Shown here: positions 3,901-64,000 of the stretch, in pieces
Layout: each line of letters starts with the position of its first letter
Position numbering within the stretch: the first letter of the stretch is position 1
Source of the DNA: Naegleria gruberi
Taxonomy: Eukaryota
DNA length: 64,000 nucleotides
NCBI GenBank assembly: GCA_000004985.1
Contig: GG738897.1
Reading direction: 5' to 3' (one strand)
Translations under genes and position numbers: made by a program
Notes under the pieces: model-generated
Databases searched by the model: none
What the model was told of the DNA's origin: nothing
The model's input: only the letters and a program-made list of their open reading frames with translations

Positions 3901-3965
3901 NNNNNNNNNNNNNNNNNNNNNNNNNNNNNNNNNNNNNNNNNNNNNNNNNNNNNNNNNNNNNNNNN
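936..3965. other. Assembly gap (3,030 N)
   Basis: Uninterrupted run of n; the 1145-aa, 1036-aa and 1015-aa ORFs crossing it in the ORF track are translation artefacts (poly-X). Confidence 1.
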
Positions 3966-8541: not shown

Positions 8542-10080
8542 ATGGATGTGTCTTCACCGCCAATGAGTGGCAACAATCTAATAGATCATAATCATACTAA
8601 CACTAACACCAATCAAACAGCTAGTTTTCAAACAACTTCTACCTCTCCAATTACACAACCAGTAGCATCACCCGAAAATCAAACAATTACTTCATCAACA
8701 GGAACCAAGAAAGTCACCATAACATCACCAGCACTAACTACAACAAAACAATCTCAGCAGCAGCATGGTTTTGCCCCAAGTGAAAGTGGAAAATCAGGAA
8801 GTTCGTTTAGTCATAGTAAACTAATGTTACGAACATGTTGTGGTGTGGTAGAGTTGACTTCAATGAAATTAGCATGTTTAGCCGGAATGGTGGTAACAGT
8901 GTTTGGTTTGTTGGTTTTAGCAGCTATTTCTATTGCTTCTTTCGTTATGGCCACAAATAAGTCAACAGATATTTTAATTAATATTGGACGTGCAAGCTAT
9001 CTCTTTGAAAGTTCAAATGCTTTTGTTGTAAAGTATGTCTTTACTAGTACTCCAAATAATGGGGCTAAGTTTGTTGAAGCTCAGCTTTTGTACTATAATT
9101 TCACTAATGAAATGGGGGATATTGTGGCGGATATTGTAGGACAGTTGAATGAACCATCTCTGAAATCTTTAATTAATGCCACATCCGTTGAAGCAATTAA
9201 ACTTTTACAAAAGGAGAATTCTCAAATATTAGTCCAGTTCAATTTAGGACAAGCACAAGATGTATATGCTAGATTGAACTCTGACACTTACAATGACATT
9301 CTCTCCAAGTTCAAGAGTGGATTGGATGGTTTAGTTTCTTTTATTCAGGATAAGGAAAAGGAAAAGGATACTCAAGTGTTGGCAATTACATCTGTTCAAT
9401 TGATTGTTATTGTAATATCACTATTTGTAGTATTACCCATCATTGTATTTGTATTTACCTTTGCTATTAATCGTGACTCATTATATTTGGAAAAGATCCG
9501 TCGTGCCAATGCTATCATGTTAATAGACACAATGGAAGATGATGGACTGAGAGCTGTATTCAAGATACATTGTGAAAAGGAAAAGTCTAGTGAAAATTAT
9601 TTGCTTCTGGAAAAGATTCAATATTATAGATCATTGTGTGAACGTTCCTTAGAACTGCAAGCAAAACTATTCCGAGACGATCCAAACAGCGATAGTTCAA
9701 GTGATATTTCAGAATCAGCTCATCCTGCAAAGAAAAAGAAGGAATCTTCTCTCGAAAGAGAATATAATGAATTGGAAGTTAAAAAGTATGAAGTTGCTTT
9801 TGAAATATTTACTGAATTCTTGGAAGTTACTGGCGTTATGTCAGTAAATATTTCACACTTGCTGGTTAATGCTGTTAAGGATAAATTGGACAAGTATAAT
9901 GATAAGCAAATTGATAGTCTTCCAGAGGATATGTTCAATGTTTTGGAAAAGGAAACATGTCTTGTAATGATGGATACTCACCACAGATTCAAGCAATCTC
10001 TTGCTTTCCAACGTGAAATGAAGATTGACAAGATTAAAATTGACCAGCTCAAGAAGAAGAAGGAAACAGACGATTTTTAA
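8542..10080 (+). CDS. Two-pass membrane protein with a C-terminal RGS (regulator of G-protein signalling) domain
   Basis: Two hydrophobic helices (LACLAGMVVTVFGLLVLAAISIASFVMA; LAITSVQLIVIVISLFVVLPIIVFVFTFAI), then LRAVFKIHCEKEKSSENYLLLEKIQYYRS … YEVAFEIFTEFLEVTGVMSVNISHLLVNAVKDKL … MFNVLEKETCLVMMDTHHRFKQSLAF. This matches the RGS consensus (F..FL..E.s.EN..F……Y… I…fl……vNi……f…a…vy.lm…..rF..S). Confidence 0.55.
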   Translation: MDVSSPPMSGNNLIDHNHTNTNTNQTASFQTTSTSPITQPVASPENQTITSSTGTKKVTITSPALTTTKQSQQQHGFAPSESGKSGSSFSHSKLMLRTCCGVVELTSMKLACLAGMVVTVFGLLVLAAISIASFVMATNKSTDILINIGRASYLFESSNAFVVKYVFTSTPNNGAKFVEAQLLYYNFTNEMGDIVADIVGQLNEPSLKSLINATSVEAIKLLQKENSQILVQFNLGQAQDVYARLNSDTYNDILSKFKSGLDGLVSFIQDKEKEKDTQVLAITSVQLIVIVISLFVVLPIIVFVFTFAINRDSLYLEKIRRANAIMLIDTMEDDGLRAVFKIHCEKEKSSENYLLLEKIQYYRSLCERSLELQAKLFRDDPNSDSSSDISESAHPAKKKKESSLEREYNELEVKKYEVAFEIFTEFLEVTGVMSVNISHLLVNAVKDKLDKYNDKQIDSLPEDMFNVLEKETCLVMMDTHHRFKQSLAFQREMKIDKIKIDQLKKKKETDDF

Positions 10081-20582: not shown

Positions 20583-22109
20583 ATGACCTTCATTTCCCTC
20601 AGCAATCATCAAGACAATAGTACGTATGGTTATAGTTTGCTTCGTCTCTGTGGAGCCATTAAGGGACACTCCAAGACCAACACATCAAACGGTGCACAAA
20701 ATCAATGGCTTTTAATTACTCAACAGCCAGCCAATAAAACTACACGATGGGAAGTAAGGGAGAGCTCGTTCAAGGCACTAATTTTACTCTCCGAAGGAGT
20801 TAATACATTGCAATTAAAATTGGAATCAAATCCGAATGAAATTTTAGGGAATTTTACATTTACCTACGATGCATCATTGATTAATAATTGGAATAGGGAA
20901 AATAAGATGATTAAGAGAGTGATTCCAGTGCATTTCGTTTGTAGTGATCATGATGGATCGTTTCAGTCAATTGAAGGATGTCAAACTGCAGAGATTGCTA
21001 GACAAAAGCTTGGAGTTGCTGCATTAATGTATCAAACTTTCTGTGCTGAAGCTTTGAAGCATAACAAGACGTTTGGATTGGAGATGGAAAGTGACAGAAC
21101 TAATATGCCACATGTCATGACATTTAAATCAAAAAAGTGGACCAGAAGTGCTTTGGAAGCTCTTGGAGATCACTGGAACGATGGAGGATGTGCTGGTTGG
21201 TCAGCAATCTATGAAGAATTAGAGGAACATGACATGCACAACCCAAATTTCATTTACTTTTGTGTTTTGGCGGGAAGCAAATATAACACAACAACTCACA
21301 AGACACAAATGGGAACTGCACTTGGTGGAGGTAAGCTTGCCTTATGGACAGACTGTACCTTGTATTCCTATGCCAAAAATGTTGATGAAATTGTCAAATG
21401 TTTGCTAGATAACAGAAAAGTCGATGTCAACAAATTACCAGATGACAGCTGTTACAGAGGAAGTTACTGGGCTAATTATTCTACTGGACTAGGAGCTGCA
21501 ATGCACGAATTGGGGCATTGCTTTGGTTGTCCACATACCCCTGGAGGAATCATGGCCAGAGGATTCGATGATTTCAATCGTTTCTTTATGATTTCAGAAC
21601 CTGGAGACAACCAAGCAATTATTACAAAAACTCACGAGTTGGGAGCTTTTTGGGAGGATTCTTCGATTGCTATTATTTTGAAACATCCAGTGGTTGGGTC
21701 AAAGAGTGAGTGTGTGATTATACCAGGGAAATCAGTGGTGCAAGTGCCAGTTGTCAAAAGCAATGTTAGTTCTGTAAATACAAATTCAATGATGGATTGT
21801 CACTATTACGTTTGTGGAAAGAGTTTTGAGAATGATTCTAGTTTTGAGCATGAATCTAAAACTACTTGGCTTGAAAGACATGGCGAAGTTCCTTTTGCTT
21901 CCTTTATTGAAACTGCCAGAAATCAAGAAGAAATAATATTATTCGACAATGGACGAAACATGGAACTGAAGCTGACCAAAGCACAAGCTTTTTGGAAAAT
22001 GGCGGATGCTACCAATTGGTATTTATTAGCAAATGGAAAACCTTTATTTTCGCACATTCAGGAAGATAGGAAACTATTAGAAAAGCATGGATGTGAAATA
22101 AAGTATTAG
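20583..22109 (+). CDS. Metzincin-type zinc metalloprotease (HExxHxxGxxH plus Met-turn)
   Basis: AAMHELGHCFGCPHTPGGIMARG is an exact HExxHxxGxxH zinc-binding motif followed by a Met-containing turn. 508 aa, single exon. Confidence 0.5.
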   Translation: MTFISLSNHQDNSTYGYSLLRLCGAIKGHSKTNTSNGAQNQWLLITQQPANKTTRWEVRESSFKALILLSEGVNTLQLKLESNPNEILGNFTFTYDASLINNWNRENKMIKRVIPVHFVCSDHDGSFQSIEGCQTAEIARQKLGVAALMYQTFCAEALKHNKTFGLEMESDRTNMPHVMTFKSKKWTRSALEALGDHWNDGGCAGWSAIYEELEEHDMHNPNFIYFCVLAGSKYNTTTHKTQMGTALGGGKLALWTDCTLYSYAKNVDEIVKCLLDNRKVDVNKLPDDSCYRGSYWANYSTGLGAAMHELGHCFGCPHTPGGIMARGFDDFNRFFMISEPGDNQAIITKTHELGAFWEDSSIAIILKHPVVGSKSECVIIPGKSVVQVPVVKSNVSSVNTNSMMDCHYYVCGKSFENDSSFEHESKTTWLERHGEVPFASFIETARNQEEIILFDNGRNMELKLTKAQAFWKMADATNWYLLANGKPLFSHIQEDRKLLEKHGCEIKY

Positions 22110-35351: not shown

Positions 35352-36749
<1,398 letters not shown>

Positions 36750-37053: not shown

Positions 37054-39111
37054 TTATTCAAAAGCTTCTCCTATTGAAGAAACTCTTCTTGCTCTCTCTG
37101 TGAAATCGTTCAATGTATCAATTTGACGATTGGTTTGTTCGGAAGTTAATTGTATATTGGTGAGTCTTCTTCTTGATGTAATTGTCTTTGTTAGACCATT
37201 GTAGAATGCCTGACCACGAGAGGACAGAACCTTGTTACGTAAAGCTCGTGGCACCTTTCCTCCAAAATCATTGTAAAATATGGAGGTGTATTTAACAAAG
37301 TTGGCATCAATTTCTTCTAACAAAATTCCTCCTAAAATTTGCCCCTTTACATTGCCCTTCTCAAGTGGAGCATCCTTATTGTCAATGCTCTTCTTGATAA
37401 TGACATAATCTCTACTCTCTGTGCCATCCTCATTAATTTCTCTTCTCACAGTTGTTCCTATACAGTATTCTCTCTTTGAGAGAGGCCACATTAGTTTGTG
37501 TACCTCTTTCTGATAGCTCACTGAGTATTCGTCATTCTTGATATATTCAATAAATTTACAATCTTTCAAATTTGGATCAATGATTTGTGAGTATCTGGTG
37601 TCTAAAAGTGCATCCAACAATTCATCAGTTGTTCCATTCACAATACCAACCTCCTTAATGAGCTTCTTACCATTTGGTTTGTTCTTTTTCTTTTTAGATG
37701 ATGACGTTTGAACTTTTTGAGCGTTGATTTGAGTAGCATTGAACTTGTACTGAGATGAGCTCAAATTTGATACCTTCTTGGATCCCAATTCAGAGTTGAA
37801 AAAGTTAGGATGACTCTCTGCCATTCTCAAATTCTCAAATGATTCATCTGGTTGCTCTATTTGAGAGCCTGTACTAAATCTCTGCTCACTTTCAAATGAT
37901 GAATACTCTTCATTTTGAGAGAGCACTTTCCAAGCATCACTTTTTAACCATAACAATTCATGGAATACATCGAAAAATCTCTCATCAATATTCTTATTAT
38001 CCCTCTCTCTGAGTAATTCTTCGAATCTGTCCTTGATTAGAACTGGTTCATTATCGGTAGAGTGAGAGATGATATCAGAAATGACCTCAGCATGGTTGGT
38101 AGGACACGAATGGCTATGAGTGAATTGAGGAGCAGAGAGTGAGAAGGAAGAGGTCATGCTTAGTGATTGAATTCTAGAACGTCTATTATTTCTAGTACCG
38201 ACGGAGGAAAATAGTGAGACGAGGCACTTTTTCACCGATTCTACATTGGTGGAGCCGACAATATTTGGCAACTCCTTCTTGACATGATTCACTGAATAGG
38301 AAATAAATTGATTACTGGTAATAAATCTTGAAAAGCTATCAGTCTTGAGTGAAATGGTCACCTCAGTCATAGCCTGATCAAACAAGTTAGTTGGGGTATT
38401 GGAAGGAGTGCATTCATCCTCAAATTGATTCACAATTTGGTCTTTGAGAGCGTTAGGTAAATTGAGTTGTTTATCACTAGTGAGTGAGTCATCGACAAAG
38501 GTTTCTACAATATATTTGGCTTGTTGATATCTTTCATTTGAATTGGAAATTTCTCTATAGGTTGGAATGAGTTGAAGAAATTCCAGTGGTGCGCTATTCC
38601 TCTCATACTGAAGAAATTCCCTAAATGCTTCCAAAAAGTCTCCTCCAACATTCATAAATGCATCAAAAACTATTGTAAAATGTTTCATATTTTCCAAAAC
38701 GAGAGATTTAAGAGCAGTCTCATCGATTGAGGCTTGTTTTGTTCCAATAAGTCTGGCTCCTAAATTAATAGGACTATTTGGACCACTTCCATTAGGAAAG
38801 AAGGATCCAGGAGAGTTTGGCATTGATCGTGAGGATGGTATATTACTATTTCCAACAGACAATAAGTTATTACTATTGTTAGAAGAATGATCTGGCACAA
38901 TTCCTAAAGCACTCCACGGAGACATTGGTGATGTTGAAAGCAAACTAGAAGTTGGTGAGCAGGGAGAAACCATACTATTTCCTGAAGGATTATGAGTTGA
39001 CCTCTTGAGAGAAGATGAGGTTGACGAAGTTGGAGAAGTTGCTCTATTATTCATGTTATTATTGCTGTTAGACGAAGATGACGATTTCTGATTTACAAGT
39101 AACATTTTCAA
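37054..39111 (-). CDS. RGS domain plus C-terminal START (StAR-related lipid-transfer) domain protein, paralog A
   Basis: RGS block: FDAFMNVGGDFLEAFREFLQYERNSAPLEFLQLIPTYREI…AKYIVETFV…NLFDQAMTEVTISLKTDSFSRFITSNQF. START block: LIKEVGIVNGTTDELLDALLDTRYSQIIDPNLKDCKFIEYI…LMWPLSKREYCIGTTVRR…VIIKKSIDNKDAPLEKGNVKGQILGGILLEE…FGGKVPRALRNKVLS. Ser/Asn-rich linker. Confidence 0.6.
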   Translation of the reverse strand: MKMLLVNQKSSSSSNSNNNMNNRATSPTSSTSSSLKRSTHNPSGNSMVSPCSPTSSLLSTSPMSPWSALGIVPDHSSNNSNNLLSVGNSNIPSSRSMPNSPGSFFPNGSGPNSPINLGARLIGTKQASIDETALKSLVLENMKHFTIVFDAFMNVGGDFLEAFREFLQYERNSAPLEFLQLIPTYREISNSNERYQQAKYIVETFVDDSLTSDKQLNLPNALKDQIVNQFEDECTPSNTPTNLFDQAMTEVTISLKTDSFSRFITSNQFISYSVNHVKKELPNIVGSTNVESVKKCLVSLFSSVGTRNNRRSRIQSLSMTSSFSLSAPQFTHSHSCPTNHAEVISDIISHSTDNEPVLIKDRFEELLRERDNKNIDERFFDVFHELLWLKSDAWKVLSQNEEYSSFESEQRFSTGSQIEQPDESFENLRMAESHPNFFNSELGSKKVSNLSSSQYKFNATQINAQKVQTSSSKKKKNKPNGKKLIKEVGIVNGTTDELLDALLDTRYSQIIDPNLKDCKFIEYIKNDEYSVSYQKEVHKLMWPLSKREYCIGTTVRREINEDGTESRDYVIIKKSIDNKDAPLEKGNVKGQILGGILLEEIDANFVKYTSIFYNDFGGKVPRALRNKVLSSRGQAFYNGLTKTITSRRRLTNIQLTSEQTNRQIDTLNDFTERARRVSSIGEAFE

Positions 39112-39942: not shown

Positions 39943-41493
39943 TCAATTGGTCATTTCATTAATTTTACCAGTGAATAAAATAGTATTGGTTGGCAAGTGT
40001 TGCAAAATAAATACAAATGGTCGATCAGCAATGAATTGATAGGAAGGAGTAAATTTTTTCATGGCTCTTCCACCACCTCTACCGCCCATTGCAGTAGCTG
40101 CAGCTGCAACTGTTCCAGATTCATCAACTTGAATGAAGGCCTTATGAATAACATTGCTAATGTGTACTTGATCGTTAGAATTGGCCAACATGCTTGAAAA
40201 ATCAGCTTGTGAAGAGAAAATATTCTTGATATTGAATGGATCTTCTCTAAATGATTGCACTAAATTTGGGAGTGTGGCTTGAAATTTGAATTTTGGAATT
40301 TCAATTCTGTCAACCTTTACAAAGGTATTTGGTTGGAGTTGAGTAACATCTTGGAGTTTTTCAATGATCCATTGATTGAAATCATTCTCAGTTTCTTCGT
40401 TGAGTGTGACATTTTCATTTGGTTTAATAAATGTCATGCAGTAATCTTCATCAGAGTAAGGCAATTGCAACAATTGATATTCATCCAAATTGGCATAACA
40501 AAATTTCTTATCAGAAGACATGTGCATCATATCACACTTGTCTCCACCACTTGGATTGGAAATAGTTCTGAAACTCTTCTTGAAGGTGGACCTATTTTTG
40601 AATTGATATTTCCACTTGCCATTGAAATAAATGGCATTCACAAGAACCATAATGGTTTGCCTATTTATATCTGTATCTGAAAGTAAATCTCTAATGTACT
40701 TTCTAGTTTTGTCTTCAACCCACTTGTTGATTAATCTGACTTGAGCAGAGGGCTTATTCATAAAGTCAACTCTCTCTGCTTGGGAATCGAACTTGCTTTC
40801 CAATTCTTGTAAGAATGGCTCTTTAATTTGAACAGTCTCTTGAAGATAAATTCTATTGGCAATGGAGAGTGTATCATTGGTTTGAATCAAGATCTTTATC
40901 ATGTTGGTATACTTTTCAAGTTCAGTTTTCTTCCAATTTTCAAACTTTTCCTTCAAAGTATTGAAATTTCCAACGCTATCATAACTCTTGCTCAAGAATA
41001 ATCCATCAATAATCTCAGTAAGAGATTCATTATTTGTACCCACCATACAATTCAAAAAGCAAATAAAAATTGAGAAGGGAGACATGACAACATTCTCCTT
41101 CAACCCAACTTTTATGCTAAACAAGGCAGATGAAAATTCATTCTCTGCCAATGACATGTTTGTTTGAGAAGTTGACACTCTTCTCTTTCCCCATGACGGT
41201 CTTGTTTGTTTTTGATCATCATTCTCATCAATCATGGCATTATCATCAATTTTACGATTTTTGCCATCATTGAATGAGAGACGATCAGTGTATTGATGAG
41301 TGGCCACTCTTCCACCTCTTGGAGATCCTCCTCTTCTATTGTGATTTCCACCACGATGGCTGGTTGTTGTGGATCGTTCAGAAGGAGGAGTAGATTGACC
41401 AATACCAATAGAAATGGAAGTTGTTGCTTCGGTGGTTGTCTTTTCTAATTGGCCGGTGAGTGGATTATTAGTAAATTTGGTGTGCTTTGGCAT
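39943..41493 (-). CDS. Serpin (serine protease inhibitor), inhibitory-type hinge
   Basis: NAIYFNGKWKYQF, hinge ESGTVAAAATAMGG, signature FIADRPFVFILQH; glycine/arginine-rich reactive loop MGGRGGGRAMKKF. The ORF track starts at 41553, but the A-rich leader suggests the ATG at 41493 (MPKHTKF…). Confidence 0.8.
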   Translation of the reverse strand: MPKHTKFTNNPLTGQLEKTTTEATTSISIGIGQSTPPSERSTTTSHRGGNHNRRGGSPRGGRVATHQYTDRLSFNDGKNRKIDDNAMIDENDDQKQTRPSWGKRRVSTSQTNMSLAENEFSSALFSIKVGLKENVVMSPFSIFICFLNCMVGTNNESLTEIIDGLFLSKSYDSVGNFNTLKEKFENWKKTELEKYTNMIKILIQTNDTLSIANRIYLQETVQIKEPFLQELESKFDSQAERVDFMNKPSAQVRLINKWVEDKTRKYIRDLLSDTDINRQTIMVLVNAIYFNGKWKYQFKNRSTFKKSFRTISNPSGGDKCDMMHMSSDKKFCYANLDEYQLLQLPYSDEDYCMTFIKPNENVTLNEETENDFNQWIIEKLQDVTQLQPNTFVKVDRIEIPKFKFQATLPNLVQSFREDPFNIKNIFSSQADFSSMLANSNDQVHISNVIHKAFIQVDESGTVAAAATAMGGRGGGRAMKKFTPSYQFIADRPFVFILQHLPTNTILFTGKINEMTN

Positions 41494-41649
41494 TGTGTGT
41501 TGTGTTTGAATAAATAATATTTTTTTTTGATTGTTTTTACAATCATTGATCAAGCTATTAATAATTGTTGTTGGAACATGTAGTGAAAATTATTGAACAT
41601 CCTTAAACGGTGTTACACAATAGGTGATTTGATTGTTAAAATAGCATGC

Positions 41650-42718: not shown

Positions 42719-44563
42719 ATGCGACTTCCTTCTTCACACAACAATAATTATCAAGAAAATCTTTCACATGCCATCCAAGAAACTTTTAAAAAGTATAATG
42801 TACATTTAGAAATGTGTCTTGGCGATGGTTTCATCATGAATGGTTTTTTGGATTTTCTCAAGAATGAACTAAATGCCAGTTCTTTGGAATTTCTTGTTAA
42901 AATTGATGAATATTCGAATAGTCATAATTCGTCTACTTTCTATTCGAATGGCAGTAGTGTCAATAATGTAAATTCACCAGCAGGATTGCTTCCTTCAATT
43001 CAGACATCTACAACAACAATATCAACAATTAGTATTGGTTCTCCGTTGTCTCCATCAGTTTCGTCCACTAGTTTCACCTCACCAGGAAGAAAGGTTCAAA
43101 GAAAGGATTCTCTGAAGGATTTAACAGAACATAATTCAATTTTTTCACAACCCTTCAACAATAACAAGATAAGTAGAAAGGCCAAAGCTAAGGAAATTAT
43201 CGACAAATTTCTCAACGATCATTCAGCACATCAAGTCAACTTGTCCAGTCAAATAAGAGATGCTGTATTGAGAAATTATGAAAAGGAATGTTCTAGAGGA
43301 GGTGGTGAAAATGATATTAATCCACATTTATTTGATGAAGCCAGAACAGAAGTTAGTTTACAATTGAAATGCGACAGTTTCGTCAGATTTTTGAAGAGTC
43401 ATTCTTTTTTCAATTTGATTGTGAGTAAGGTAGAGAAGGAAGTTACCTCAAAGAATTTGGATGCCATTTACAAGTTTTTGAATATCTACTTTTCCAAGAT
43501 TGGAGAGACAAAGAAAAATCAAGTTTCTCAATTTATTACAAATAAGTCGAATAGAGCTCTTTCTCCTGCTTCACCTGCTTCTGGTTCTGGTTCAGGTTCT
43601 GGATCTCCATTGGGATTGGTTTCACCATTGGCTGATCTTTCAAGTGATGATGGTTCCATTGACTCGGTTGAATCAATTACTCATGTCAATCATGTTCAAA
43701 CAATGCTTTCCCTTCATACCCTTTCTCCAAATGGAATAGAAACAAAAATATTGGATAATGTTATGGATATTAGAGAAAAATTCACCAAATCTATTGCTGA
43801 ATTGGTAGATGATATTGTTACTGAGCAACAATTTGATTTACTTATCGAATTGGTCAATAACGAAAGTTTGTGGTTGAAAGTTCACGAAGATTCTGAATCC
43901 TCATGCTTTGTTTCAGAAAACAAATTCTATCACAACAGTAGAGGATTGAAAATTTATAAGGAAGTGGGAATTATTGAATCATCTCCTGAGGAAGTACTCT
44001 TTGCATTGACAGATATGAGAATCTTGAATATCATTGACGATACCATGTCCAATGTGAAATTTGAAAGATTTGTCAAAGGACCTACCTATGCAGTCAGCTA
44101 TTTGAGCAGTAAAATGAAAATGGCTTGGCCAATGAGTGATAGACAATTCCTGATTGGAACTTCCATTAGAGACGAAACATTTGATTCCTACAATGGATAT
44201 ACCATCTTGAGAAGAAGTCACGATTGCAAAGAGGTTCCACTCAGTAAGGGATGCATCAAGGGTATCTTTCTAGGAGGCGTTGTTATTGAGAAATTGAGTG
44301 AAAAACACACAAGATTCACAGCTTCAGGATTTGTTGACATGGGTGGCAAATTCCCACTTTCTCTCTTTAACAAGATTCTTTCACTAAGACAATCAAAAGG
44401 TGTTGAAAATGTCAAGAAGGGAATTTCAAAGAGAAGAAACATGCCACTTACAGAACAACAAGTCAACTCTGAAAATTCATTCTACTTGTTGGATACTCTC
44501 TTCTACTCGAGAGAACACAAAACTCAACCAAACAGTAGCAGCTCTCACACTCCTTCATTTTAA
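42719..44563 (+). CDS. RGS domain plus C-terminal START domain protein, paralog B (head-to-head with paralog A across the serpin)
   Basis: RGS block: GFIMNGFLDFLKNELNASSLEFLVKIDEYS…KAKEIIDKFL…HLFDEARTEVSLQLKCDSFVRFLKSHSF. START block: LKIYKEVGIIESSPEEVLFALTDMRILNIIDDTMSNVKFERFV…MAWPMSDRQFLIGTSIRD…GIFLGGVVIEKL…FVDMGGKFPLSLFNKILS. Confidence 0.6.
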   Translation: MRLPSSHNNNYQENLSHAIQETFKKYNVHLEMCLGDGFIMNGFLDFLKNELNASSLEFLVKIDEYSNSHNSSTFYSNGSSVNNVNSPAGLLPSIQTSTTTISTISIGSPLSPSVSSTSFTSPGRKVQRKDSLKDLTEHNSIFSQPFNNNKISRKAKAKEIIDKFLNDHSAHQVNLSSQIRDAVLRNYEKECSRGGGENDINPHLFDEARTEVSLQLKCDSFVRFLKSHSFFNLIVSKVEKEVTSKNLDAIYKFLNIYFSKIGETKKNQVSQFITNKSNRALSPASPASGSGSGSGSPLGLVSPLADLSSDDGSIDSVESITHVNHVQTMLSLHTLSPNGIETKILDNVMDIREKFTKSIAELVDDIVTEQQFDLLIELVNNESLWLKVHEDSESSCFVSENKFYHNSRGLKIYKEVGIIESSPEEVLFALTDMRILNIIDDTMSNVKFERFVKGPTYAVSYLSSKMKMAWPMSDRQFLIGTSIRDETFDSYNGYTILRRSHDCKEVPLSKGCIKGIFLGGVVIEKLSEKHTRFTASGFVDMGGKFPLSLFNKILSLRQSKGVENVKKGISKRRNMPLTEQQVNSENSFYLLDTLFYSREHKTQPNSSSSHTPSF

Positions 44564-53990: not shown

Positions 53991-56900
53991 CTATTTGAAA
54001 TATTTAAGAGAAAGTAATTGAGATGCTGAAGGTCTTTGATTTGCATCTTTTTCTAACATTTTCAAAACTATTTCAATCAATTCGTCCGAATATTCGCAAT
54101 GAGCAGATTCTTTCATTTGATTCTTCAATATTTTGATTGCATTCTCCGCTTGATTTCCCATTAGCAAGTTACTAATCGAAGTTGCCAAGTCATTGGTCAT
54201 GATTTGATAAATTGAAATACCCAATGAGAAAATATCCGTATTATATGAATATGAACTTCCAAGTGCAACTTCAGGACTCATATCTGAATAGTTTAGTTTA
54301 GTTTGGGTAATGAAAAATTATAATACTTACAAAGTGGAGTTCCAGCATAGGATTGACCTGTCATTTCTTGATACTTTTTGGCTAATCCAAAATCTGCCAA
54401 TACAATGTCAATATTGTCGCTTGTCATTTTCTTAATAAAAATATTTGTTTGCTTAATATCTCTGTGAATAATGTGCATTTCTTCATGTACATATTTCAAT
54501 GCATTCAACATTTGTTTCAATATTTGCTTGACAATCTTTTCACTGCAATTTTCTTGTTTCAATTTTGTTAAATCTCCCAATTCAAAATAATCCATGTCAA
54601 TAATCAATAAATTGTCATTTGTAATGAAATAATCATTAATTTTGATAATATTGGAATGGTTGATATGATTCAATTGAGATGCTTCTTTCATAATTGTATT
54701 CAAATCTGTCAATGTTTCAAATTTAACAAGTTTGATTGCTTTCAATTTGTTTTTCTTTAAATCTGTCACTTTGTAAACACTTCCAAATGCTCCTTGTCCA
54801 ATTCTTGTAATGTTTGAATATCTGGAGAATGGATTTATCATATCTGAGCCAACAGAAGATCCAGCAGATGAGGAAATAATCATTGAACTAGACGAAAGGA
54901 AAGTTGTTTCGGATAATTCAACATTTCCTGTGTCCAATTTAGCAATTTCAAAGTCCTTCTTTTTCTTTTTTGAGAAACACACGACTATTACAATAATTAA
55001 TATCACAACTATTAGTAAAATCAATAAAACCCCAACAATCGGTATCACAATAGCTACTATCAAAACTGTAGAATCAATTATTGACTGACTTTTGAGTTCA
55101 CAAAATTGACCTTCAAATCCAATCTTACATTGACAAACATCAATATCAGAACATTGTCCATTTCCATTACAAACATTTTCACTTGATGCCAATGTTCCAT
55201 TACAACTCAATTTGGAATCACATGTACTATTCCAAGAATTGTAAGTGTAGTTTCTTCCACAATATGGAATAATCTTTCGAATATAAGCTCTAGCATCAAT
55301 GAAAAAGATTTCACCCGTACTTTCATCGTAATCCACTTGTCTTGCAAACGTTGAAAAGATTGAATAAGTTCCAAATCCATCTCCATTGAATTTTGGGGAT
55401 GCAACTCTTGATCCAGCAATATCCAGCAATAAACCGCTCCGTTTCTGATACATTCGAACAAGAGAAGTTCCACTACCATCCAAAATAATTATATCTCCAT
55501 TCTTTTTCACATAGAAAGCAGAGGGATTATCGATCGATGATTGGAGGGCTGGTAGTTTATCACCTGAATAGCCCTGAATTGAATTTCCAACCAAAGTTCT
55601 TAAATAATAGGTGCCTTCAGATAGTTTTTCAATTCTTCTAATGGTAGCTTGTGTACTTAAATATATGTAACCACTATCATAGAAAATATTTGATATTACA
55701 CCTGGAAATGTCACATTACTCATGATTCCATCATCAGAAATGAGACCATTGTTTGAAAATGTAATATCTATTGACATTGTTTTAGTTGTTTGGCTGTATC
55801 TGTAAATTGCTGAATCCAAGGCGATTAGCAAATCACCAGTCGTATCCTCAACTGTCAATCCATTAATTAAATTAAATTGTGGACATGGAGAATCAACTGC
55901 ATTAATTCCAGTCACGAATGATCCACACACTGTTGATCCAATAACAGTTTCATAATTCATAGTGTCTGGATCGATTCGAATAAATCTACATGTATCCTTA
56001 ATATAGATTTTTCTATCAAATTTTGAGAACACTCCTTGAGCCTTTGCGGTGCCGAGTTGTGCATTGAAAGTAAAATAGGGTGATTTAACTGAAGCAAGTG
56101 GAGTTGTTAACAGTGAGCTACTTAAGGTGGTAGACTTGCCAGTAGTTTCATCAAATTTCTTCAAAGTTCTCATATCCATATAGTAGCTCACTTTCTTTGA
56201 TGCATCTCTCATTAACATTAACGGAGTTAAAGTTCTTGAAGCTGGACTTAGTCCTGCAATTGTGGAAACTCTTCCATTCGAAATTTCACTCAAATGATAT
56301 TGGTTTGTCACAAGAATTCTGGAATCTTGTTTGACAGCTCTTGGTAAATATCTACAGTTCCATCATTAAGGCAGGAATTATTCGAATTTTCCCGAATATT
56401 AAAAGAATTATACTTACAGAGCTGAGCTTTCGACTGGAATATTCTCACCATTGAATCCATAAACATAGACGATTGTGTTTGAAACATTAAGATGATCCAA
56501 TCCTCCAATTTTCTTCAATGTAAAACTTTCTAATTGAAAATCATAAAGTTGACCCATATTAAAAAAAAACAAATTTCTATCATTTTTTTGAAATCCATTA
56601 AATGTCAAAGATGTTGGCATTGGCGTGCTGAAAACTAACATTGATCCATTCTTAAAGTCAACATACTCATACAGAGTATTCAATGAACCTGAATATAAAA
56701 ATAAGGAATTAGAATCAGGATATCTGATATTTGGAATAGCAACAATTTGATCAAGATATCCATTTGGAATTGGAATTATTAATTGGTATAAAACTGTAGA
56801 TTTTTGTAAAATACTGATTAGATACTCAGAAGTTCTTAAATAAATTGTAGAATTGTCGAAAGAATCACCAAGTACATCAATCGCACTTGAATAAATTGGA

Positions 56901-59089: not shown

Positions 59090-60439
59090 CTAACAATAAT
59101 CTTGTAAAGTAAATGAGTATTGGTTCTGGAAATTGGATCTAGCTAGTTTAGGAGCCATTAGCCTCAAGCTTTCCAATAATGATTGTCTCTTCTCTGTCGA
59201 AAAGGAGAAATTTCCAATTTCCAAATAATAAAGGTTTGGTAACATTCCACCACCAAACTTGACATTATCAACTTCGTCCACCAAAACTTGTCCGTATCCA
59301 CCATTCCTTCTCTCCACTCTAAAATACTCAATCTGAGTAAATTCACCTATTCTCGAATAGAAATCTCCAGATATTTGATGACAAACACCAAGGTTCAAAT
59401 GTTTCAACTTAGGAAGAGCCTTCAAGAATCCATACAATCCTTCATCATTAATAGAAACTCCTATATATCCATAGCCATGATCAACGTCAATAGAAATTTT
59501 TTCAAGATTAGGGCACATTCTAGTTATGTACATTAGTATATTTACATCACAATAGTTATGAAAAAATATTTCAAGATCCAACAAATTAGGTGTCAACTTG
59601 AGAATGTCAATAACAAATTTTTGAGATTGTACATCATCCAAAATACATCCAGACACAATTCTCAAGTTTTTCAATGAGGTCAGTAGGGGACACTCGTAGA
59701 AATCTTCATATTTTTCATCTGAAACAGAATCTCCAAAGCTGATCTCCAAATTCTCCACCAAATGACAAAATCTCAACACATAATACATATCACTCAATAA
59801 ATGCTCGAAATACAATTTTAAATTCTTCATAAAGAAACCAAGTGGGATTGTTATAATTTCCTTTTCCTTAACTATTCGTTTCTCCTCAATTGTTGACTCT
59901 CCCTCATTGCTAAAATTAAAGCCAACAGTTGGTTGCAACACAACAAATGGAATTTTTCTTTTTTCATAAATGGAATCAAAATTTTTAACCTCCATTTCGA
60001 AATAAACCTTAGCATTAACAAAATTAAAGAAATTAAATTCCAATTCTTCTGAAAGAAGCTTTAAATTTCCTCTATATTGTTCGGCTATTTTCGTGAACAA
60101 TGCAAAATTAAATGTACTAGCATCAATAACCACATTTTTGCAAATTCTCAATATTGTTGCAATTGACCAATATTCATGTTGATTTTGTACATATTCAACA
60201 GCCATTGGATACATGATCGAAATCCAATCACGAATGATTGAATAATTTCTCTGACAAGTCATTGAATAATTTATCAATCCACCAAACGTCAGAAATTTAA
60301 ACATGTAATTTAATTCATCACTCGCCAATCGATCGAGAATGATCTCGGAATGATCATTTGCAATTTTTGTTTTTTTAGCCATTTCCATATTTTTCAATGA
60401 AAAATCGGAAAGAGTTCCACTATGGGTGCGTTTCAACAT
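59090..60439 (-). CDS. F-box-like / LRR (FBXL-type) protein
   Basis: N-terminal SEIILDRLASDELNYMFKFLTFGGLINYSMTCQRNYSIIRDW fits an F-box loosely. C-terminal irregular Leu-rich repeats (…LKNLRIVSGCILDDVQ…LKLTPNLLDLEIFF…LKALPKLKHLNLGVCHQISGDFYSRIGEFTQIEYF…LPNLYYLEIGNFSF…). 449 aa, single exon. Confidence 0.4.
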   Translation of the reverse strand: MLKRTHSGTLSDFSLKNMEMAKKTKIANDHSEIILDRLASDELNYMFKFLTFGGLINYSMTCQRNYSIIRDWISIMYPMAVEYVQNQHEYWSIATILRICKNVVIDASTFNFALFTKIAEQYRGNLKLLSEELEFNFFNFVNAKVYFEMEVKNFDSIYEKRKIPFVVLQPTVGFNFSNEGESTIEEKRIVKEKEIITIPLGFFMKNLKLYFEHLLSDMYYVLRFCHLVENLEISFGDSVSDEKYEDFYECPLLTSLKNLRIVSGCILDDVQSQKFVIDILKLTPNLLDLEIFFHNYCDVNILMYITRMCPNLEKISIDVDHGYGYIGVSINDEGLYGFLKALPKLKHLNLGVCHQISGDFYSRIGEFTQIEYFRVERRNGGYGQVLVDEVDNVKFGGGMLPNLYYLEIGNFSFSTEKRQSLLESLRLMAPKLARSNFQNQYSFTLQDYC

Positions 60440-60691: not shown

Positions 60692-61801
60692 TTAATCTTC
60701 CATGATATCAACCTTTTCATTCAAGGCAGCATCAGAGGCAAGGGATTGCTCAACAAGTTCTTGACTTTCTGAAGGAGCAACTGTGGTTGTTTCTTCTTCT
60801 TCTTCTTGAGATGGAGCAGAACTTTCCTTTTGAGCAGTTTCTTCTTCTTCAGTTTCTTTAACAAGTCTGTGTCTCTTCAAATTGGACAAGTATTTGGATA
60901 AACTCATTGTGAAAACCATTTCTTCTTCATCTTCAGTAGCATCAAAGATAATGTAAACCTTAAAATCATTCTTAGCTTCACTCTTCTTACAAGCAATAAT
61001 ACCACTTTCACCTTCACCAATAATTACATAATCTTCATTCTTCTTCATCCACTCTGGACAATCATCATCGTTCAAGATAAAGATTTCATGCTTGATGAGA
61101 CCAAAGGAATGACCGCCAACATGCTTCTTAGTAATGGTGAACTTGATATCCTCTGGGAATTTAGCAGAGACGAAAGCATTAATTTCCTCTGGAATTGGTT
61201 CTTCATCTCTGTAGGCACGCTTTGGGAGATTGAGCTTAATAGTGGCACCCAACTTTTTCATCAATTCGAAATTCTTCTTAGATAATGGATAGGTCCATTC
61301 TTCCTTTTGCTTATTGGTAGTCTTCTTTTCAGCGGCAACATCTTCATCAGCCATTTGATTTTCAACATTTTCCTTATCTTCAGTTTCCTTCTTAGCAGCA
61401 GCCTTCTTCTTGTTCATCTTTTCAGTGAGTTTACTTCTCTTATCGAAGGAATTCTTACTTGCAGGCTTGGATGCCTTTTCTTCCAAGCTCTTATAATTGA
61501 CGTTCTTTCTTCTTCTGGTACCAGCAACAATGTTGGAAGAATCGAATTCACCACCAACTTTGACCATTCTCTTGGAACGATCCTTTTCCTTGGTTTTGAA
61601 ACCAGTCAAGAGCAAGACTCTCTTACCATTCTCATCTTCCACGAGTTTGGCTCCTGTAATCTTTTCCTTAAAATCACGAGTGCAGACTTGGAATTCTTTG
61701 GCAAGTTCTTTGACTGGAGCAAGTTCTTCATCAATTTCAGTTTCGTCGATTGGATTGTATCTCTTTTTACCGACGCTGATTACTTTAGTGGCCTTTGGCA
61801 T
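60692..61801 (-). CDS. Basic N-terminus / acidic C-terminal-tail protein, probably nuclear (possible PH-like histone-chaperone fold), function uncertain
   Basis: 369-aa ORF; K/R-rich N-terminal third, central …KKHVGGHSFGLIKHEIFILNDDDCPEWMKKNEDYVIIGEGESGIIACKK…VYIIFDATEDEEEMVFTMS block, then Glu/Thr-rich acidic tail (…ETEEEETAQKESSAPSQEEEEETTTV…). Antisense ORFs 61307..61859 on the plus strand are spurious. Confidence 0.4.
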   Translation of the reverse strand: MPKATKVISVGKKRYNPIDETEIDEELAPVKELAKEFQVCTRDFKEKITGAKLVEDENGKRVLLLTGFKTKEKDRSKRMVKVGGEFDSSNIVAGTRRRKNVNYKSLEEKASKPASKNSFDKRSKLTEKMNKKKAAAKKETEDKENVENQMADEDVAAEKKTTNKQKEEWTYPLSKKNFELMKKLGATIKLNLPKRAYRDEEPIPEEINAFVSAKFPEDIKFTITKKHVGGHSFGLIKHEIFILNDDDCPEWMKKNEDYVIIGEGESGIIACKKSEAKNDFKVYIIFDATEDEEEMVFTMSLSKYLSNLKRHRLVKETEEEETAQKESSAPSQEEEEETTTVAPSESQELVEQSLASDAALNEKVDIMED

Positions 61802-62426
61802 TTTTGTGTTAGCTAGATTTGTTGGATTTTTTTTGTTGTTTTGTGTGAAGAGAAGGTGAACAAGAGGTGAGGGCTTTTATTTTGAATTTGATCGTGTAAC
61901 GGTTTTTGAATGGCGGGAAATCAACAAATCCAACGATTTGAATTTCCACTTTTCTATGGAAAGACGCAACCAGAAACACAGCAATAAAACATTCGGATAC
62001 AATAGACGTTACATTTAAATTGTGTGAGTTTGTTGCCAGCTGTAATTCACTATTGGCGCCAATTCTTGGTACTAATGGCTTGATGTTGCCAAAGAAGGCA
62101 AGCAAGAGAAAACAACAAAAGATTTCGAAGAAACAACAATTATCATCAATACGTAATGTAACATGATGAAAGTAATGCAAACAATTAAATAATAATCAGA
62201 ATTTACATGTTAAAGATCATGATATTGTTATCCTTACAATAAAGGTGAATGCTGTTTTAATCAATAAATTGCTGCTGTCATCCGTCCTTGATTAAAAATA
62301 AATCTCTTAACCTTCCCATAGTAAGAGAAAGACATTCATAAAAAAACAAGATTATTCACATATATCTCTTCATGTTAATAATTCAATTCGACTTATTATT
62401 CGATTCCAAATTTTAAACGAAACACA

Positions 62427-64000
62427 ATGAATGATCCCTCTAATACTTTCCCAGCAGCGAGCCAGCCTTCCACTACTGATGACAATAATCATGGTGATGA
62501 TGAAGTTGTGGTGAATAACAGTTCATCAACTACTCTCTTTCCAACTTTCCCTCCTTCTCTATCATCAACAATCAATAACACTTCATCATTACTTATTAAC
62601 AACAATAATTCTCTATTTTCATTCCAGCCTCTGCAATCAAACCCACCAATACCATCATCATCATTCTTTAACACTTCCAGCAACAATAATTCTTCTTCTT
62701 CCTTCTTTCATCACAATGATAATAATTCAAACAAAACAAATTTCTTTTCCTCCTCAACTTTTGAAATTAAAAACAATAACAACACGCAACTACGAGCCGC
62801 AACGAAAGAAGAGCAACATCAACAACATGTAATTACATCACCATTATCACCGATAAGCCTACGGCTTACATCTGCTAGTAATAATAATAATAATAACTGT
62901 ACTGGAATTAATAATAACATGAATATTAACAATAATGAATCAACGGAGAGGAGTCTAACAATTTTCAAAGCATTGAATAATAATAATAATAATACTAATA
63001 ACAATTTTAATCACATTAATAATAATAATATTAACAATAAGGAGGCTAGATCATCATCGGAACGAATTGGAAGACAAAATGTAAATAACATCTTCTCTAG
63101 CCCTTCTCATGCTAATAGCAACAATATTCATAACAATAATACCTCTCCATTATTTTCTCTACAAAGTAATAGTAATAATAGAGAAATGGAAATAGATACC
63201 TCAGGATTACTTGATTCTGAGAGGGTTTCATTTAGTATTAGTACATCAACAACAAGTAATCCCATCAATTCACTTCCAATTCCATACCAAACAGGAGTAG
63301 CTGATTCAACTCTTCATATTGCTACTGAAAGCTCATATTCAGAAAATTCACACAATTTACTGAATAATAGTTATGATAATATAAATCCCTCCGAGGAAGT
63401 TATTAGAAAAACAAGACACCAAATTGAAACAGTTGAAAATTGGGTACGACGTGCAAGTTTTTATTATCTAGTGAAGGGATTATCAATAGGATTATTGATT
63501 TTCCTCTTTTTATCCTTATTTGTGGCAGTTCTTGTTGGCCTTGCTACATTTGCCTTGGAAGAAATGAGAACCAAGAGCATTAGAGAAACGGCCAAGTACA
63601 ATTGCTTTATGGCAGATAGTGCAATCAAGAAAAGAATCGAGGTGACTATCACTGCTCTAGATAATATTCGAGAGACAGTCATCTCTTGGGATTACAATGT
63701 AGATCCTGACAAGTTTGACGAGTTTGCTATGAAAACAAGTCAATACCAATACTTTAACATCATTCACACATTTGGAATGACAAGGAATTATACACTAACA
63801 GAGGTGTATCCAATGAATGTTTTGAAGAGTCTTGTAGGACAAGAGATTGGAATTGAACCCAATCATAGGGAACAATTACAGATTGCAATAGAAACAAATA
63901 GTACTACTATTTATGGACCATTCCTTACTATCAATAATCAATACAGCTTGATGGCTCAACAGCCAATCCTTGATTTCAATTTAAATTTCTGGGGATTTTC
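62427..64000 (+). CDS. 5' part of a membrane sensor protein with extracellular CHASE-like domain (probable hybrid histidine kinase or similar receptor); runs off the window end
   Basis: ATG at 62427; open to 64000 with no stop (absent from the ORF track for that reason). N-terminal about 350 aa Asn/Ser-rich, TM helix GLSIGLLIFLFLSLFVAVLVGLATFAL. Then …ITALDNIRETVISWDYNVDPDKFDEFAMKTSQYQYFNIIHTFGMTRNYTLTEVYPMNVLKSLVGQEIGIEPNHREQLQIAIETNSTTIYGPFLTINNQYSLMAQQPI, which follows the CHASE pattern (…F..y….f…..t..vaya..V……..G.di……R..il.A..tG…lt.PF.L…….g..a..Piy). Confidence 0.45.
   Translation, partial: MNDPSNTFPAASQPSTTDDNNHGDDEVVVNNSSSTTLFPTFPPSLSSTINNTSSLLINNNNSLFSFQPLQSNPPIPSSSFFNTSSNNNSSSSFFHHNDNNSNKTNFFSSSTFEIKNNNNTQLRAATKEEQHQQHVITSPLSPISLRLTSASNNNNNNCTGINNNMNINNNESTERSLTIFKALNNNNNNTNNNFNHINNNNINNKEARSSSERIGRQNVNNIFSSPSHANSNNIHNNNTSPLFSLQSNSNNREMEIDTSGLLDSERVSFSISTSTTSNPINSLPIPYQTGVADSTLHIATESSYSENSHNLLNNSYDNINPSEEVIRKTRHQIETVENWVRRASFYYLVKGLSIGLLIFLFLSLFVAVLVGLATFALEEMRTKSIRETAKYNCFMADSAIKKRIEVTITALDNIRETVISWDYNVDPDKFDEFAMKTSQYQYFNIIHTFGMTRNYTLTEVYPMNVLKSLVGQEIGIEPNHREQLQIAIETNSTTIYGPFLTINNQYSLMAQQPILDFNLNFWGF

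What the first reader, a model, noticed from the sequence alone, without database searches (positions are those of the whole stretch)
62427..64000. CHASE-domain sensor gene truncated at the window edge
A long ORF starts at 62427 and is still open at 64000. After an Asn/Ser-rich region and a TM helix it encodes a domain with the CHASE pattern. In social amoebae and plants, CHASE is the ligand-binding ectodomain of hybrid histidine kinases (cytokinin-type receptors). It is missing from the ORF track, so easy to overlook; the downstream kinase/receiver part would lie beyond this window.
Basis: partly seen in the sequence, partly recalled or inferred. Interest (0 to 1): 0.5.

Follow-up and report, generated by a model that had tools for sequence, protein, structure and literature searches.

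The report
Naegleria CHASE-sensor RGS receptor gene
The open reading frame cut by the window edge is real and does start a CHASE-type extracellular sensor, but it belongs to the amoeboflagellate Naegleria gruberi, and the full protein ends in PAS and RGS (G-protein regulator) domains rather than a histidine kinase.

Summary
Observation confirmed. An ATG-started ORF runs 62427-64000 (+) without a stop (524 codons). It has an Asn/Ser-rich N-terminus, one strong TM helix (aa ~344-380) and then the first ~145 residues of a CHASE domain.

The 524 residues are identical to the start of Naegleria gruberi XP_002672439.1 (NAEGRDRAFT_81188, 960 aa, "predicted protein"). The window also begins with the TTTGGG-type repeat proposed as the N. 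gruberi telomere. So this is a heterolobosean, not a social amoeba.

The full protein is N/S-rich tail, TM1, CHASE ectodomain, TM2, long helix, PAS, RGS. It has no HisKA, HATPase_c or receiver domain. Relatives from Willaertia magna and from metagenomes align end to end with the same architecture.

Most likely it is a two-TM, receptor-type RGS protein. A bacterial-style sensor module would control a G-alpha regulator, parallel to the 7TM-RGS proteins known in Naegleria and plants. The RGS domain of this paralogue is divergent at several G-alpha-contact positions, so GAP activity is uncertain. The ligand is unknown.

The parts
61802..62426 (.). 5' intergenic region shared with the divergently oriented neighbour 60692-61801(-); presumed promoter and 5' UTR. 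It contains the in-frame stop at 62379-62381 that bounds the ORF.
   Evidence: No promoter analysis was attempted (eukaryote).
62427..64000 (+). Partial CDS: codons 1-524 of the 960-codon N. gruberi gene NAEGRDRAFT_81188 (XP_002672439.1). There is no intron in this part.
   Evidence: Translation identical (0 mismatches in 524 aa) to P0026. P(open by chance) ~7e-18.
62427..63446 (+). Cytoplasmic Asn/Ser-rich low-complexity N-terminal region (aa 1-340). It evolves fast: it is absent or short in relatives and carries indels in a near-identical strain variant.
   Evidence: Composition. Alignment A1 shows that relatives lack most of it. P0001 differs from the window here only.
63456..63566 (+). Transmembrane helix 1 (aa ~344-380), preceded by a K/R-rich juxtamembrane stretch (N-terminus inside). 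In the model it continues into the long CHASE stalk helix.
   Evidence: Hydropathy. AF2 model has one helix spanning model residues 2-91, i.e. aa 331-420.
63567..63998 (+). N-terminal ~65% of the extracellular CHASE domain (aa 381-524 of ~381-604): stalk helix plus most of the membrane-distal PAS-like subdomain, ending in the conserved 'FWGF' motif. The Pfam CHASE match covers 63681-63965.

Best explanation
The ORF is the 5' part of a Naegleria gruberi gene for a two-pass membrane receptor. The layout is: cytoplasmic Asn/Ser-rich tail, TM1, extracellular CHASE domain (~225 aa, stalk helix plus two PAS-like lobes), TM2, a long cytoplasmic signalling helix, a PAS domain, and a C-terminal RGS domain.

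Proposed mechanism (inferred). A small extracellular ligand binds the CHASE domain of a probably dimeric receptor. The conformational change passes through the stalk, TM2 and the signalling helix into the PAS domain, as in bacterial CHASE-PAS histidine kinases. This alters how the RGS domain engages GTP-bound G-alpha at the membrane. The protein would then act as a 'receptor GAP' that tunes the lifetime of active G-alpha. That is the logic proposed for 7TM-RGS proteins acting on self-activating G-alpha subunits in plants, Trichomonas and Naegleria.

Shown here: gene identity, architecture, CHASE homology and fold, RGS homology and fold, absence of kinase and receiver domains, and conservation of the architecture in other heteroloboseans.

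Inferred: topology, dimeric signalling, ligand regulation, and GAP activity. GAP activity is least certain for this paralogue, whose RGS domain has lost several canonical G-alpha-contact residues.
For: Identity and architecture:
- The window ORF equals aa 1-524 of XP_002672439.1.
- Pfam on the 960-aa protein gives CHASE at aa 419-556 (24.1 bits), PAS_8 (weak) and RGS at aa 820-915 (18.2 bits), with no HK or receiver domains.
- TM segments lie at 344-380 and 605-638.

Conserved family:
- P0002 (41% identity; CHASE 38.7, RGS 25.8), Willaertia magna KAL9649680.1 (RGS 49.1, PAS_9 26.7), KAL9646184.1 (CHASE 28.0, RGS 42.6), KAL9656577.1 (CHASE 34.9, RGS 44.0) and P0003 (CHASE 27.6).
- All have two TM helices and are collinear to the C-terminus.
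- The P0002 gene is a single exon on its contig.

Structure:
- AF2 model (pLDDT 75-90 in the ectodomain) shows a stalk helix, two alpha/beta lobes, a TM2 helix of ~80 residues, a PAS domain and a helical bundle.
- A sequence profile of heterolobosean plus bacterial CHASE domains has AHK4 as its best PDB hit (E 7e-4).

RGS:
- The family profile hits RGS10 (E 3e-9), the GRK2 RH domain (4e-9) and RGS4 (5e-6), and its PAS region hits FixL (0.0056).
- A separate AF2 model of aa 800-960 (pLDDT 78, pTM 0.72) has only RGS/RH domains among its top 50 Foldseek hits.

Context:
- N. gruberi has 229 RGS proteins (PMC3971589).
- N. fowleri has self-activating G-alpha subunits, and the RGS domains of its 7TM-RGS proteins act on them as GAPs (PMC9283941).
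Against: - For this particular protein both the CHASE score (24.1 vs 25) and the RGS score (18.2 vs 23.9) fall just below the Pfam cutoffs.
- I aligned the RGS region to RGS10 (fragment printed; alignment). The mapping to RGS4 numbering is from memory of the RGS4-Gi-alpha1 structure.
  - Glu87 equivalent is Arg.
  - Asn128 equivalent is Asp.
  - Asp163 and Arg167 equivalents are Asn/Leu and Ser.
  - Only the Asn88 equivalent is kept.
  - P0002 shares this pattern, whereas the three Willaertia relatives keep E-N, N, D and R.
  So this paralogue may bind G-alpha without GAP activity, or not bind it at all.
- Residues 525-960 come from a database gene model, not from the window, and I could not fetch the DNA beyond 64000.
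- No ligand, no expression data and no biochemical data exist for any family member.
- Both structural models are predictions from a 6-sequence alignment.
Confidence: 0.6

Rival explanations
1. One reading: a CHASE-domain hybrid histidine kinase (cytokinin-receptor or DhkA type) whose HisKA, HATPase_c and receiver domains lie just beyond the window.
For: CHASE domains are most often attached to histidine kinases. The bacterial proteins hit by the fragment are CHASE-HK or CHASE-GGDEF. In Dictyostelia, CHASE occurs in DhkA (PMC6324907).
Against: The identical N. gruberi protein ends at residue 960 with PAS plus RGS and no kinase or receiver hit at E<=1. All six collinear relatives lack them too. 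The published description of the 24 N. gruberi HKs names only PAS and GAF sensor domains. The organism is not a dictyostelid.
Confidence: 0.02
2. Same architecture, but the C-terminal domain of this paralogue is an RGS-homology (RH) module without GAP activity. The protein would be a ligand-regulated membrane anchor, effector or scaffold for G-alpha or another partner, as with the GRK2, Axin or RhoGEF RH domains.
For: Pfam RGS is below the cutoff (18.2 bits). Substitutions occur at the equivalents of RGS4 Glu87, Asn128, Asp163 and Arg167 in P0026 and P0002. The family profile scores the GRK2 RH domain as high as the true GAP RGS10. PMC3971589 notes that some RGS domains have lost GAP activity and act as scaffolds.
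Against: The RGS fold is intact. The Asn88 equivalent is retained. The Willaertia relatives keep the canonical contact residues, so the ancestral family function was probably GAP. Residue mapping rests on an alignment at ~15-18% identity.
Confidence: 0.25
3. Gene-model artefact: the 960-aa protein fuses two adjacent genes (a CHASE membrane protein and a separate PAS-RGS protein) or lacks further exons.
For: The part beyond codon 524 could not be checked against DNA here. N. gruberi models are automated predictions. RGS genes are dense in this region, with three others in the same 64 kb.
Against: Seven proteins from at least three sources (N. gruberi, W. magna x3, metagenome/SRA assemblies) share the same collinear order and align to the C-terminus. 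P0002 is one uninterrupted 2436-nt ORF on its contig.
Confidence: 0.04
4. The ectodomain is a generic double-PDC/dCache sensor rather than a CHASE domain proper.
Confidence: 0.05

Closest known systems
7TM-RGS receptor-GAPs (Arabidopsis AtRGS1; 28 Naegleria fowleri 7TM-RGS proteins; Trichomonas 7TM-RGS)
   Same: A membrane receptor-like protein with a C-terminal cytoplasmic RGS domain, in a lineage with self-activating G-alpha subunits. Presumed logic: an extracellular cue controls GAP activity (PMC9283941; PMC3971589).
   Different: Two TM helices instead of seven. The sensor is a bacterial-type CHASE ectodomain followed by a signalling helix and a PAS domain, not a GPCR-like bundle. No sequence relationship outside the RGS domain.
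CHASE-domain sensor histidine kinases (Arabidopsis AHK4/CRE1, Xanthomonas PcrK, Dictyostelium DhkA; bacterial CHASE-PAS-HK)
   Same: TM1-CHASE-TM2 input module, in bacteria often followed by PAS. The fold matches PcrK and AHK4 best. Motifs are shared.
   Different: The output is RGS, not HisKA/HATPase_c/receiver. The position aligned to the Asp of the AHK4 'LDMM' motif varies in the family (Glu, Glu, Asp, Ser, Asn, Asn). From memory of the AHK4 structure paper (unverified), that Asp is the adenine-binding residue. Cytokinin specificity is therefore not implied. Identity to AHK4 is ~13%.
Dictyostelium ACG (AcgA): CHASE plus adenylate cyclase osmosensor
   Same: A eukaryotic protist protein in which a CHASE ectodomain flanked by TM helices drives a non-kinase cytoplasmic output (PMC4399386).
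   Different: The output is a class III cyclase, not PAS-RGS. No cyclase domain is present here. Dictyostelid CHASE proteins were not among the 25 hits of the fragment search.
Canonical R4-type RGS domains (RGS4, RGS10, RGS16)
   Same: Helical-bundle RGS fold and sequence-profile similarity. The Willaertia family members keep the G-alpha-contact residues.
   Different: The N. gruberi paralogue replaces most contact residues and scores below the Pfam RGS cutoff.

Membership tests
CHASE domain (Pfam PF03924) | Profile match at or above the Pfam gathering score (25 bits) | tested here: inconclusive
   Window fragment scores 13.5 bits and the full protein 24.1 bits, both just below the cutoff. Closest relatives pass: 38.7, 34.9, 28.0, 27.6 bits. 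A bacterial-only CHASE profile scores the fragment 79.9 bits against a shuffle maximum of 8.1.
CHASE domain (Pfam PF03924) | Extracytoplasmic domain of ~200-250 aa lying between two TM helices at the N-terminal side of a signalling protein | tested here: met
   TM1 at aa 344-380 (in the window), TM2 at 605-638 (database protein), loop ~225 aa. The same holds in all relatives. Topology is inferred, not measured.
CHASE domain (Pfam PF03924) | Fold: long N-terminal stalk helix followed by two PAS-like alpha/beta subdomains, as in AHK4 and PcrK | tested here: met
Hybrid sensor histidine kinase / cytokinin receptor (CKR, DhkA type) | HisKA and HATPase_c transmitter domains | tested here: not met
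   No hit at E<=1 in the 960-aa protein or at E<=0.01 in relatives P0002-P0006 and P0016.
Hybrid sensor histidine kinase / cytokinin receptor (CKR, DhkA type) | C-terminal receiver (Response_reg) domain | tested here: not met
   No hit. The protein ends with the RGS domain.
Hybrid sensor histidine kinase / cytokinin receptor (CKR, DhkA type) | Cytokinin-binding pocket residues of AHK4 | tested here: inconclusive
   Only one stretch could be aligned to AHK4. The position of the AHK4 'LD' Asp is Glu here and varies in the family (D/E/S/N). The role of that Asp is recalled from the AHK4 structure paper and was not verified here.
RGS domain (Pfam PF00615) | Profile match at or above the gathering score (23.9 bits) | tested here: inconclusive
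   This protein scores 18.2 bits, E 0.0033. Relatives score 49.1, 44.0, 42.6, 25.8 bits. The family profile against PDB gives RGS10 at E 3e-9.
RGS domain (Pfam PF00615) | Nine-helix RGS fold | tested here: met
   AF2 model of aa 800-960 has pLDDT 78.4 and seven long helices. All top 50 Foldseek PDB hits are RGS or RH domains, with TM-score up to 0.72 normalised to the target.
RGS domain (Pfam PF00615) | Conserved G-alpha switch-contact residues (RGS4 Glu87/Asn88, Asn128, Asp163, Arg167) and GAP activity | tested here: inconclusive
   N. gruberi P0026 keeps only the Asn88 equivalent, whereas the W. magna relatives keep all of them. GAP activity itself is not testable with these tools.
7TM-RGS (AtRGS1 type) | Seven transmembrane helices N-terminal to the RGS domain | tested here: not met
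   Only two membrane-spanning segments lie before the RGS domain. A third hydrophobic stretch (aa 909-928) lies inside the RGS helical bundle.
ACG-type CHASE adenylate cyclase | Class III cyclase catalytic domain after the CHASE-TM module | tested here: not met
   No Guanylate_cyc hit.

The most novel reading that the evidence does not exclude
Heteroloboseans (Naegleria, Willaertia and uncultured relatives) may possess a family of non-7TM 'receptor GAPs'. In these, a bacterial-type CHASE-TM-PAS input module has been rewired from two-component output to direct control of heterotrimeric G-proteins through an RGS domain. A diffusible small molecule, possibly a purine/cytokinin-like or prey-derived compound, would then switch G-alpha signalling off or on without any GPCR. 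Relatives with the same sensor but no RGS-like C-terminus (P0005, P0008) suggest the output is modular. I found no description of a CHASE-RGS architecture in the searchable literature.
Probability: 0.3. Interest if true: 0.7.

Novelty: new variant of a known kind. Interest (0 to 1): 0.45.

Why it matters
Receptor-type RGS proteins are thought to be the main way that organisms with self-activating G-alpha subunits (plants, Trichomonas, Naegleria) couple outside signals to G-proteins. Their ligands and gating mechanism are poorly defined, because the sensor is a 7TM bundle.

A CHASE-PAS-RGS protein offers the same logic with a soluble, crystallisable ectodomain. Its fold is already understood in AHK4 and PcrK, which makes ligand discovery and chimeric-receptor tests practical.

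It also documents a direct evolutionary graft of a prokaryote-style sensor module onto eukaryotic G-protein signalling. Naegleria fowleri is a lethal pathogen, so lineage-specific surface receptors of this genus are of some applied interest.

For the scan itself the lesson is simpler: 'CHASE' does not imply 'histidine kinase', and Asn-rich AT-rich sequence does not imply Dictyostelium.

Tried and rejected
1. The search for homologous proteins gave little.
   - aa 323-524: no hits.
   - Family alignment A2: only P0001 and bacterial CHASE kinases.
   - Cytoplasmic alignment A3: nothing.
   - The word-indexed search did not recover even proteins known to be in the collection. I therefore could not count paralogues in N. 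gruberi or check N. fowleri.
2. The look-up of encoding contigs could not extend the DNA past 64000. The two neighbouring genes and P0026 are not on record.
3. The search for related loci in metagenome contigs failed.
4. NCBIfam returned nothing. PDB phmmer with the fragment alone gave only a spurious flagellin-hook repeat match.
5. The afdb50 fold library was unavailable.
6. Reading Anantharaman et al. 2011 (Gene) failed by DOI and by PMC id: not held. The supplements of PMC3971589 are not held either.
7. No synteny was found between the window neighbours and the P0002 contig L001.
8. The initial assumption of a dictyostelid origin (DhkA or ACG orthologue) was rejected once the exact N. gruberi match appeared.
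9. An intron or stop just before the window end was rejected. This was suggested by P0001 being 520 aa, but P0001 comes from a 1858-bp contig and is simply cut by the contig end.
Full report
**1. The observation.**
The sequence at 62427-64000 (+) begins with ATG. It is preceded by an in-frame TAA at 62379 and stays open to the last base of the window, giving 524 codons. With the window's composition (~33% G+C, stop probability 0.073 per codon) the chance of such a run is ~7e-18. Only 10 of 7329 stop-free runs in all six frames are as long.

Residues 1-340 are 22% Asn and 18% Ser. One strongly hydrophobic segment follows at aa ~344-380. The ORF is missing from the mechanical ORF list only because that tool skips ORFs that run off the end of the window.

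**2. Is the CHASE call real?**
On the fragment alone Pfam gives only a sub-threshold CHASE hit. It scores E 0.063 and 13.5 bits against a cutoff of 25, and covers profile positions 27-127 of 189 because the window cuts the domain.

An exhaustive phmmer search of aa 325-524 against 1.84 billion representatives found 25 proteins at E<=1e-3. These fall into three groups.
- A 100%-identical fragment.
- A set of eukaryote-like two-TM proteins (E 7e-30 down to ~1e-5).
- Bacterial proteins that carry strong Pfam CHASE domains fused to HisKA/HATPase_c, GGDEF or EAL (for example P0007 at CHASE 116.7 bits and P0010 at 58.5 bits).

The multiple alignment shows the shared motifs (...YP...G...G; GP; P[IV]F; FWGF). 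A profile built only from the bacterial domains scores the window fragment 79.9 bits, against a maximum of 8.1 for 2000 shuffles. The caveat is that these bacterial sequences were selected by similarity to the query. A combined profile has the Arabidopsis AHK4 sensor domain as its best hit in the PDB (E 7e-4).

**3. What gene is it?**
The cluster look-up placed the fragment with Naegleria gruberi XP_002672439.1 / EFC39695.1 (NAEGRDRAFT_81188, 'predicted protein', 960 aa). Its first 524 residues are identical to the window translation, with 0 mismatches.

The window starts with ~38 copies of CCCAAA. This is the complement of TTTGGG, the candidate telomere repeat reported for N. gruberi (PMC3622300). 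So the window is a chromosome end of N. gruberi, a heterolobosean amoeboflagellate and not a social amoeba.

P0001 (520 aa) is a strain variant from an 1858-bp SRA-assembly contig. It differs only by substitutions and indels in the Asn/Ser-rich region, and it is truncated by its contig end.

**4. The rest of the protein.**
Pfam on the 960-aa protein gives the following:
- CHASE at aa 419-556: 24.1 bits, E 3.5e-5.
- A weak PAS_8 hit at aa 698-737.
- RGS at aa 820-915: 18.2 bits, E 0.0033, cutoff 23.9.
- No HisKA, HATPase_c, receiver or cyclase domain, even at E<=1.

A second TM segment lies at aa 605-638.

The closest relatives are P0002 (metagenome, 41% identity in the CHASE region), P0003, and three Willaertia magna proteins (KAL9649680.1, KAL9646184.1, KAL9656577.1). 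All have two TM helices separated by ~230-260 residues. All are collinear with the N. gruberi protein up to the C-terminus. Several pass the Pfam cutoffs for both CHASE and RGS (CHASE 38.7/34.9/28.0/27.6 bits; RGS 49.1/44.0/42.6/25.8 bits), and one has PAS_9 at 26.7 bits. P0002 is a single uninterrupted ORF on its 9.8-kb contig. This argues against a gene-fusion artefact.

A profile of the family hits solved RGS domains (RGS10 E 3e-9, GRK2 RH domain 4e-9, RGS4 5e-6). Its PAS region hits FixL (E 0.0056).

**5. Predicted structure.**
An AlphaFold2 model of aa 330-960 has mean pLDDT 68.9, with 75-90 across the ectodomain. It shows these elements in order:
- One continuous helix from TM1 into a stalk (aa 331-420).
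- Two alpha/beta lobes (aa ~448-543 and ~547-601).
- A second long helix comprising TM2 and a cytoplasmic signalling helix (aa 607-689).
- A PAS fold (aa 694-797).
- A helical bundle (aa 808-955).

A separate model of aa 800-960 (pLDDT 78.4, pTM 0.72) has RGS16, RGS2, RGS1, RGS4, RGS8 and similar among its top hits. Every one of the top 50 is an RGS or RH domain.

**6. How it most likely works.**
The input half (TM1-CHASE-TM2-helix-PAS) has the organisation of bacterial CHASE sensor kinases. The transmitter has been replaced by an RGS domain.

Naegleria has an exceptionally large RGS repertoire: 229 proteins in N. gruberi (PMC3971589). Three more RGS genes lie in this same 64-kb window. N. fowleri has self-activating G-alpha subunits that are deactivated by the RGS domains of a 28-member 7TM-RGS family. 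Its authors propose that family acts as receptor-GAPs like plant AtRGS1 (PMC9283941).

The best-supported reading is therefore a two-TM receptor-type RGS protein. Ligand binding to the CHASE ectodomain would be transmitted through the stalk, TM2, the signalling helix and PAS, and would change how the RGS domain acts on membrane-bound G-alpha-GTP. The architecture is shown. The signalling steps are inferred.

**7. Caveats on function.**
I aligned the RGS region to the RGS10 fragment printed by HMMER. The RGS4 residue numbers used below are recalled from the RGS4-Gi-alpha1 structure, not checked here.
- The three Willaertia relatives keep the canonical G-alpha-contact residues: the Glu-Asn pair, the Asn128 equivalent, and the Asp163 and Arg167 equivalents.
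- The N. gruberi protein and P0002 have Arg-Asn, Asp in place of Asn128, and Asn/Ser or Asn/Lys at the last two positions.

This paralogue may thus be a weak GAP, may have altered specificity, or may be a non-catalytic RH module.

On the sensor side, the position aligned with the Asp of the AHK4 'LDMM' motif is Glu here. Across the family it is Glu, Asp, Ser, Asn and Asn. From memory, that Asp is the adenine-binding residue. The family therefore need not share one ligand, and 'cytokinin-type' is unsupported.

Two further relatives (P0005, P0008) have the CHASE-TM-PAS part but no recognisable RGS domain. This hints at output swapping.

**8. Comparison with known systems and novelty.**
The sequence itself is already public as an unannotated 'predicted protein'. 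Each domain is a known kind, and receptor-like membrane RGS proteins are known (7TM-RGS; 'RGS fused to at least one TM domain' in most lineages).

The specific CHASE-PAS-RGS combination did not turn up in any paper I could search, using the term pairs 'CHASE domain' + 'RGS domain', and 'Naegleria' + 'CHASE'. CHASE reviews list only cyclases, diguanylate cyclases and histidine kinases as partners (PMC1863423). I could not read the main RGS-architecture survey (Anantharaman et al. 2011), so prior description cannot be excluded. I rate it a new variant of a known kind.

**9. Limits.**
- Residues 525-960 rest on a database gene model supported by homologue collinearity, not on DNA I could read.
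- The family census is limited to one representative-level search, because the word-indexed searches failed.
- The structures are predictions from shallow alignments.
- No experimental data exist for any member.

**Verdict.**
The CHASE assignment is supported. The histidine-kinase and social-amoeba interpretation is not supported. The gene encodes a heterolobosean CHASE-PAS-RGS membrane receptor of moderate interest.

Noticed in passing
window 1-230: About 38 tandem copies of CCCAAA (the complement of TTTGGG) at the very start of the window, followed by unique sequence. This matches the candidate telomere repeat proposed for N. gruberi from genome data (PMC3622300), so the window is a chromosome or scaffold end.
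   Followed up: partly
window 937-3965: Assembly gap of ~3 kb of N. The three >1000-aa 'ORFs' listed across it (856-4293 +, 923-4033 -, 927-3974 -) are artefacts of translating N. The real coding sequence 3966-4293 (+) is the 3' end of a gene interrupted by the gap.
   Followed up: partly
window 8542-10080 (+), 37054-39111 (-), 42719-44563 (+): Three more RGS-domain genes in the same 64 kb (Pfam RGS 27.5, 60.3 and 61.3 bits; the last also carries a START domain). This fits the reported 229 RGS proteins of N. gruberi. Both RGS regions I put in the alignment, 37054-39111 (-) and 42719-44563 (+), keep the canonical Asn128, Asp163 and Arg167 equivalents; 8542-10080 (+) was not aligned.
   Followed up: partly
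window 62427-63446 versus P0001: A near-identical strain variant (SRA-assembly contig) differs from the window by indels and substitutions only in the Asn/Ser-rich N-terminal region (for example AASQPSTTDDNNHGDD versus AASRPDDNNRGDD). It is 100% identical from the juxtamembrane region through the CHASE part. The low-complexity tail evolves fast while the sensor is constrained.
   Followed up: partly
proteins P0005, P0008 (and possibly P0013, P0015): Relatives with the same TM-CHASE-TM(-PAS) input. P0005 and P0008 have a C-terminus that is not recognisably RGS; P0013 and P0015 are only ~450 aa. These may be output-swapped or output-less members of the sensor family. Their source organisms are unknown (SRA or metagenome assemblies).
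   Followed up: partly
window 35352-36707 (-), 39943-41553 (-), 20583-22109 (+), 54293-56311 (-): Other recognisable genes in this subtelomeric window: a tubulin (Tubulin 218 bits plus Tubulin_C), a serpin (267 bits), a PF12044 putative metallopeptidase (202 bits) and a protein kinase whose catalytic domain is cut short in the ORF, suggesting an intron or a split model.
   Followed up: no
window 60692-61801 (-) and 59090-60439 (-): Neither complete neighbouring ORF is on record as an exact gene product in the assembly index, although the genome is public. Either their public gene models differ (introns or alternative starts) or this genome is not indexed there. The first has a borderline CHZ histone-chaperone motif (23.0 bits against a cutoff of 23.3).
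   Followed up: no
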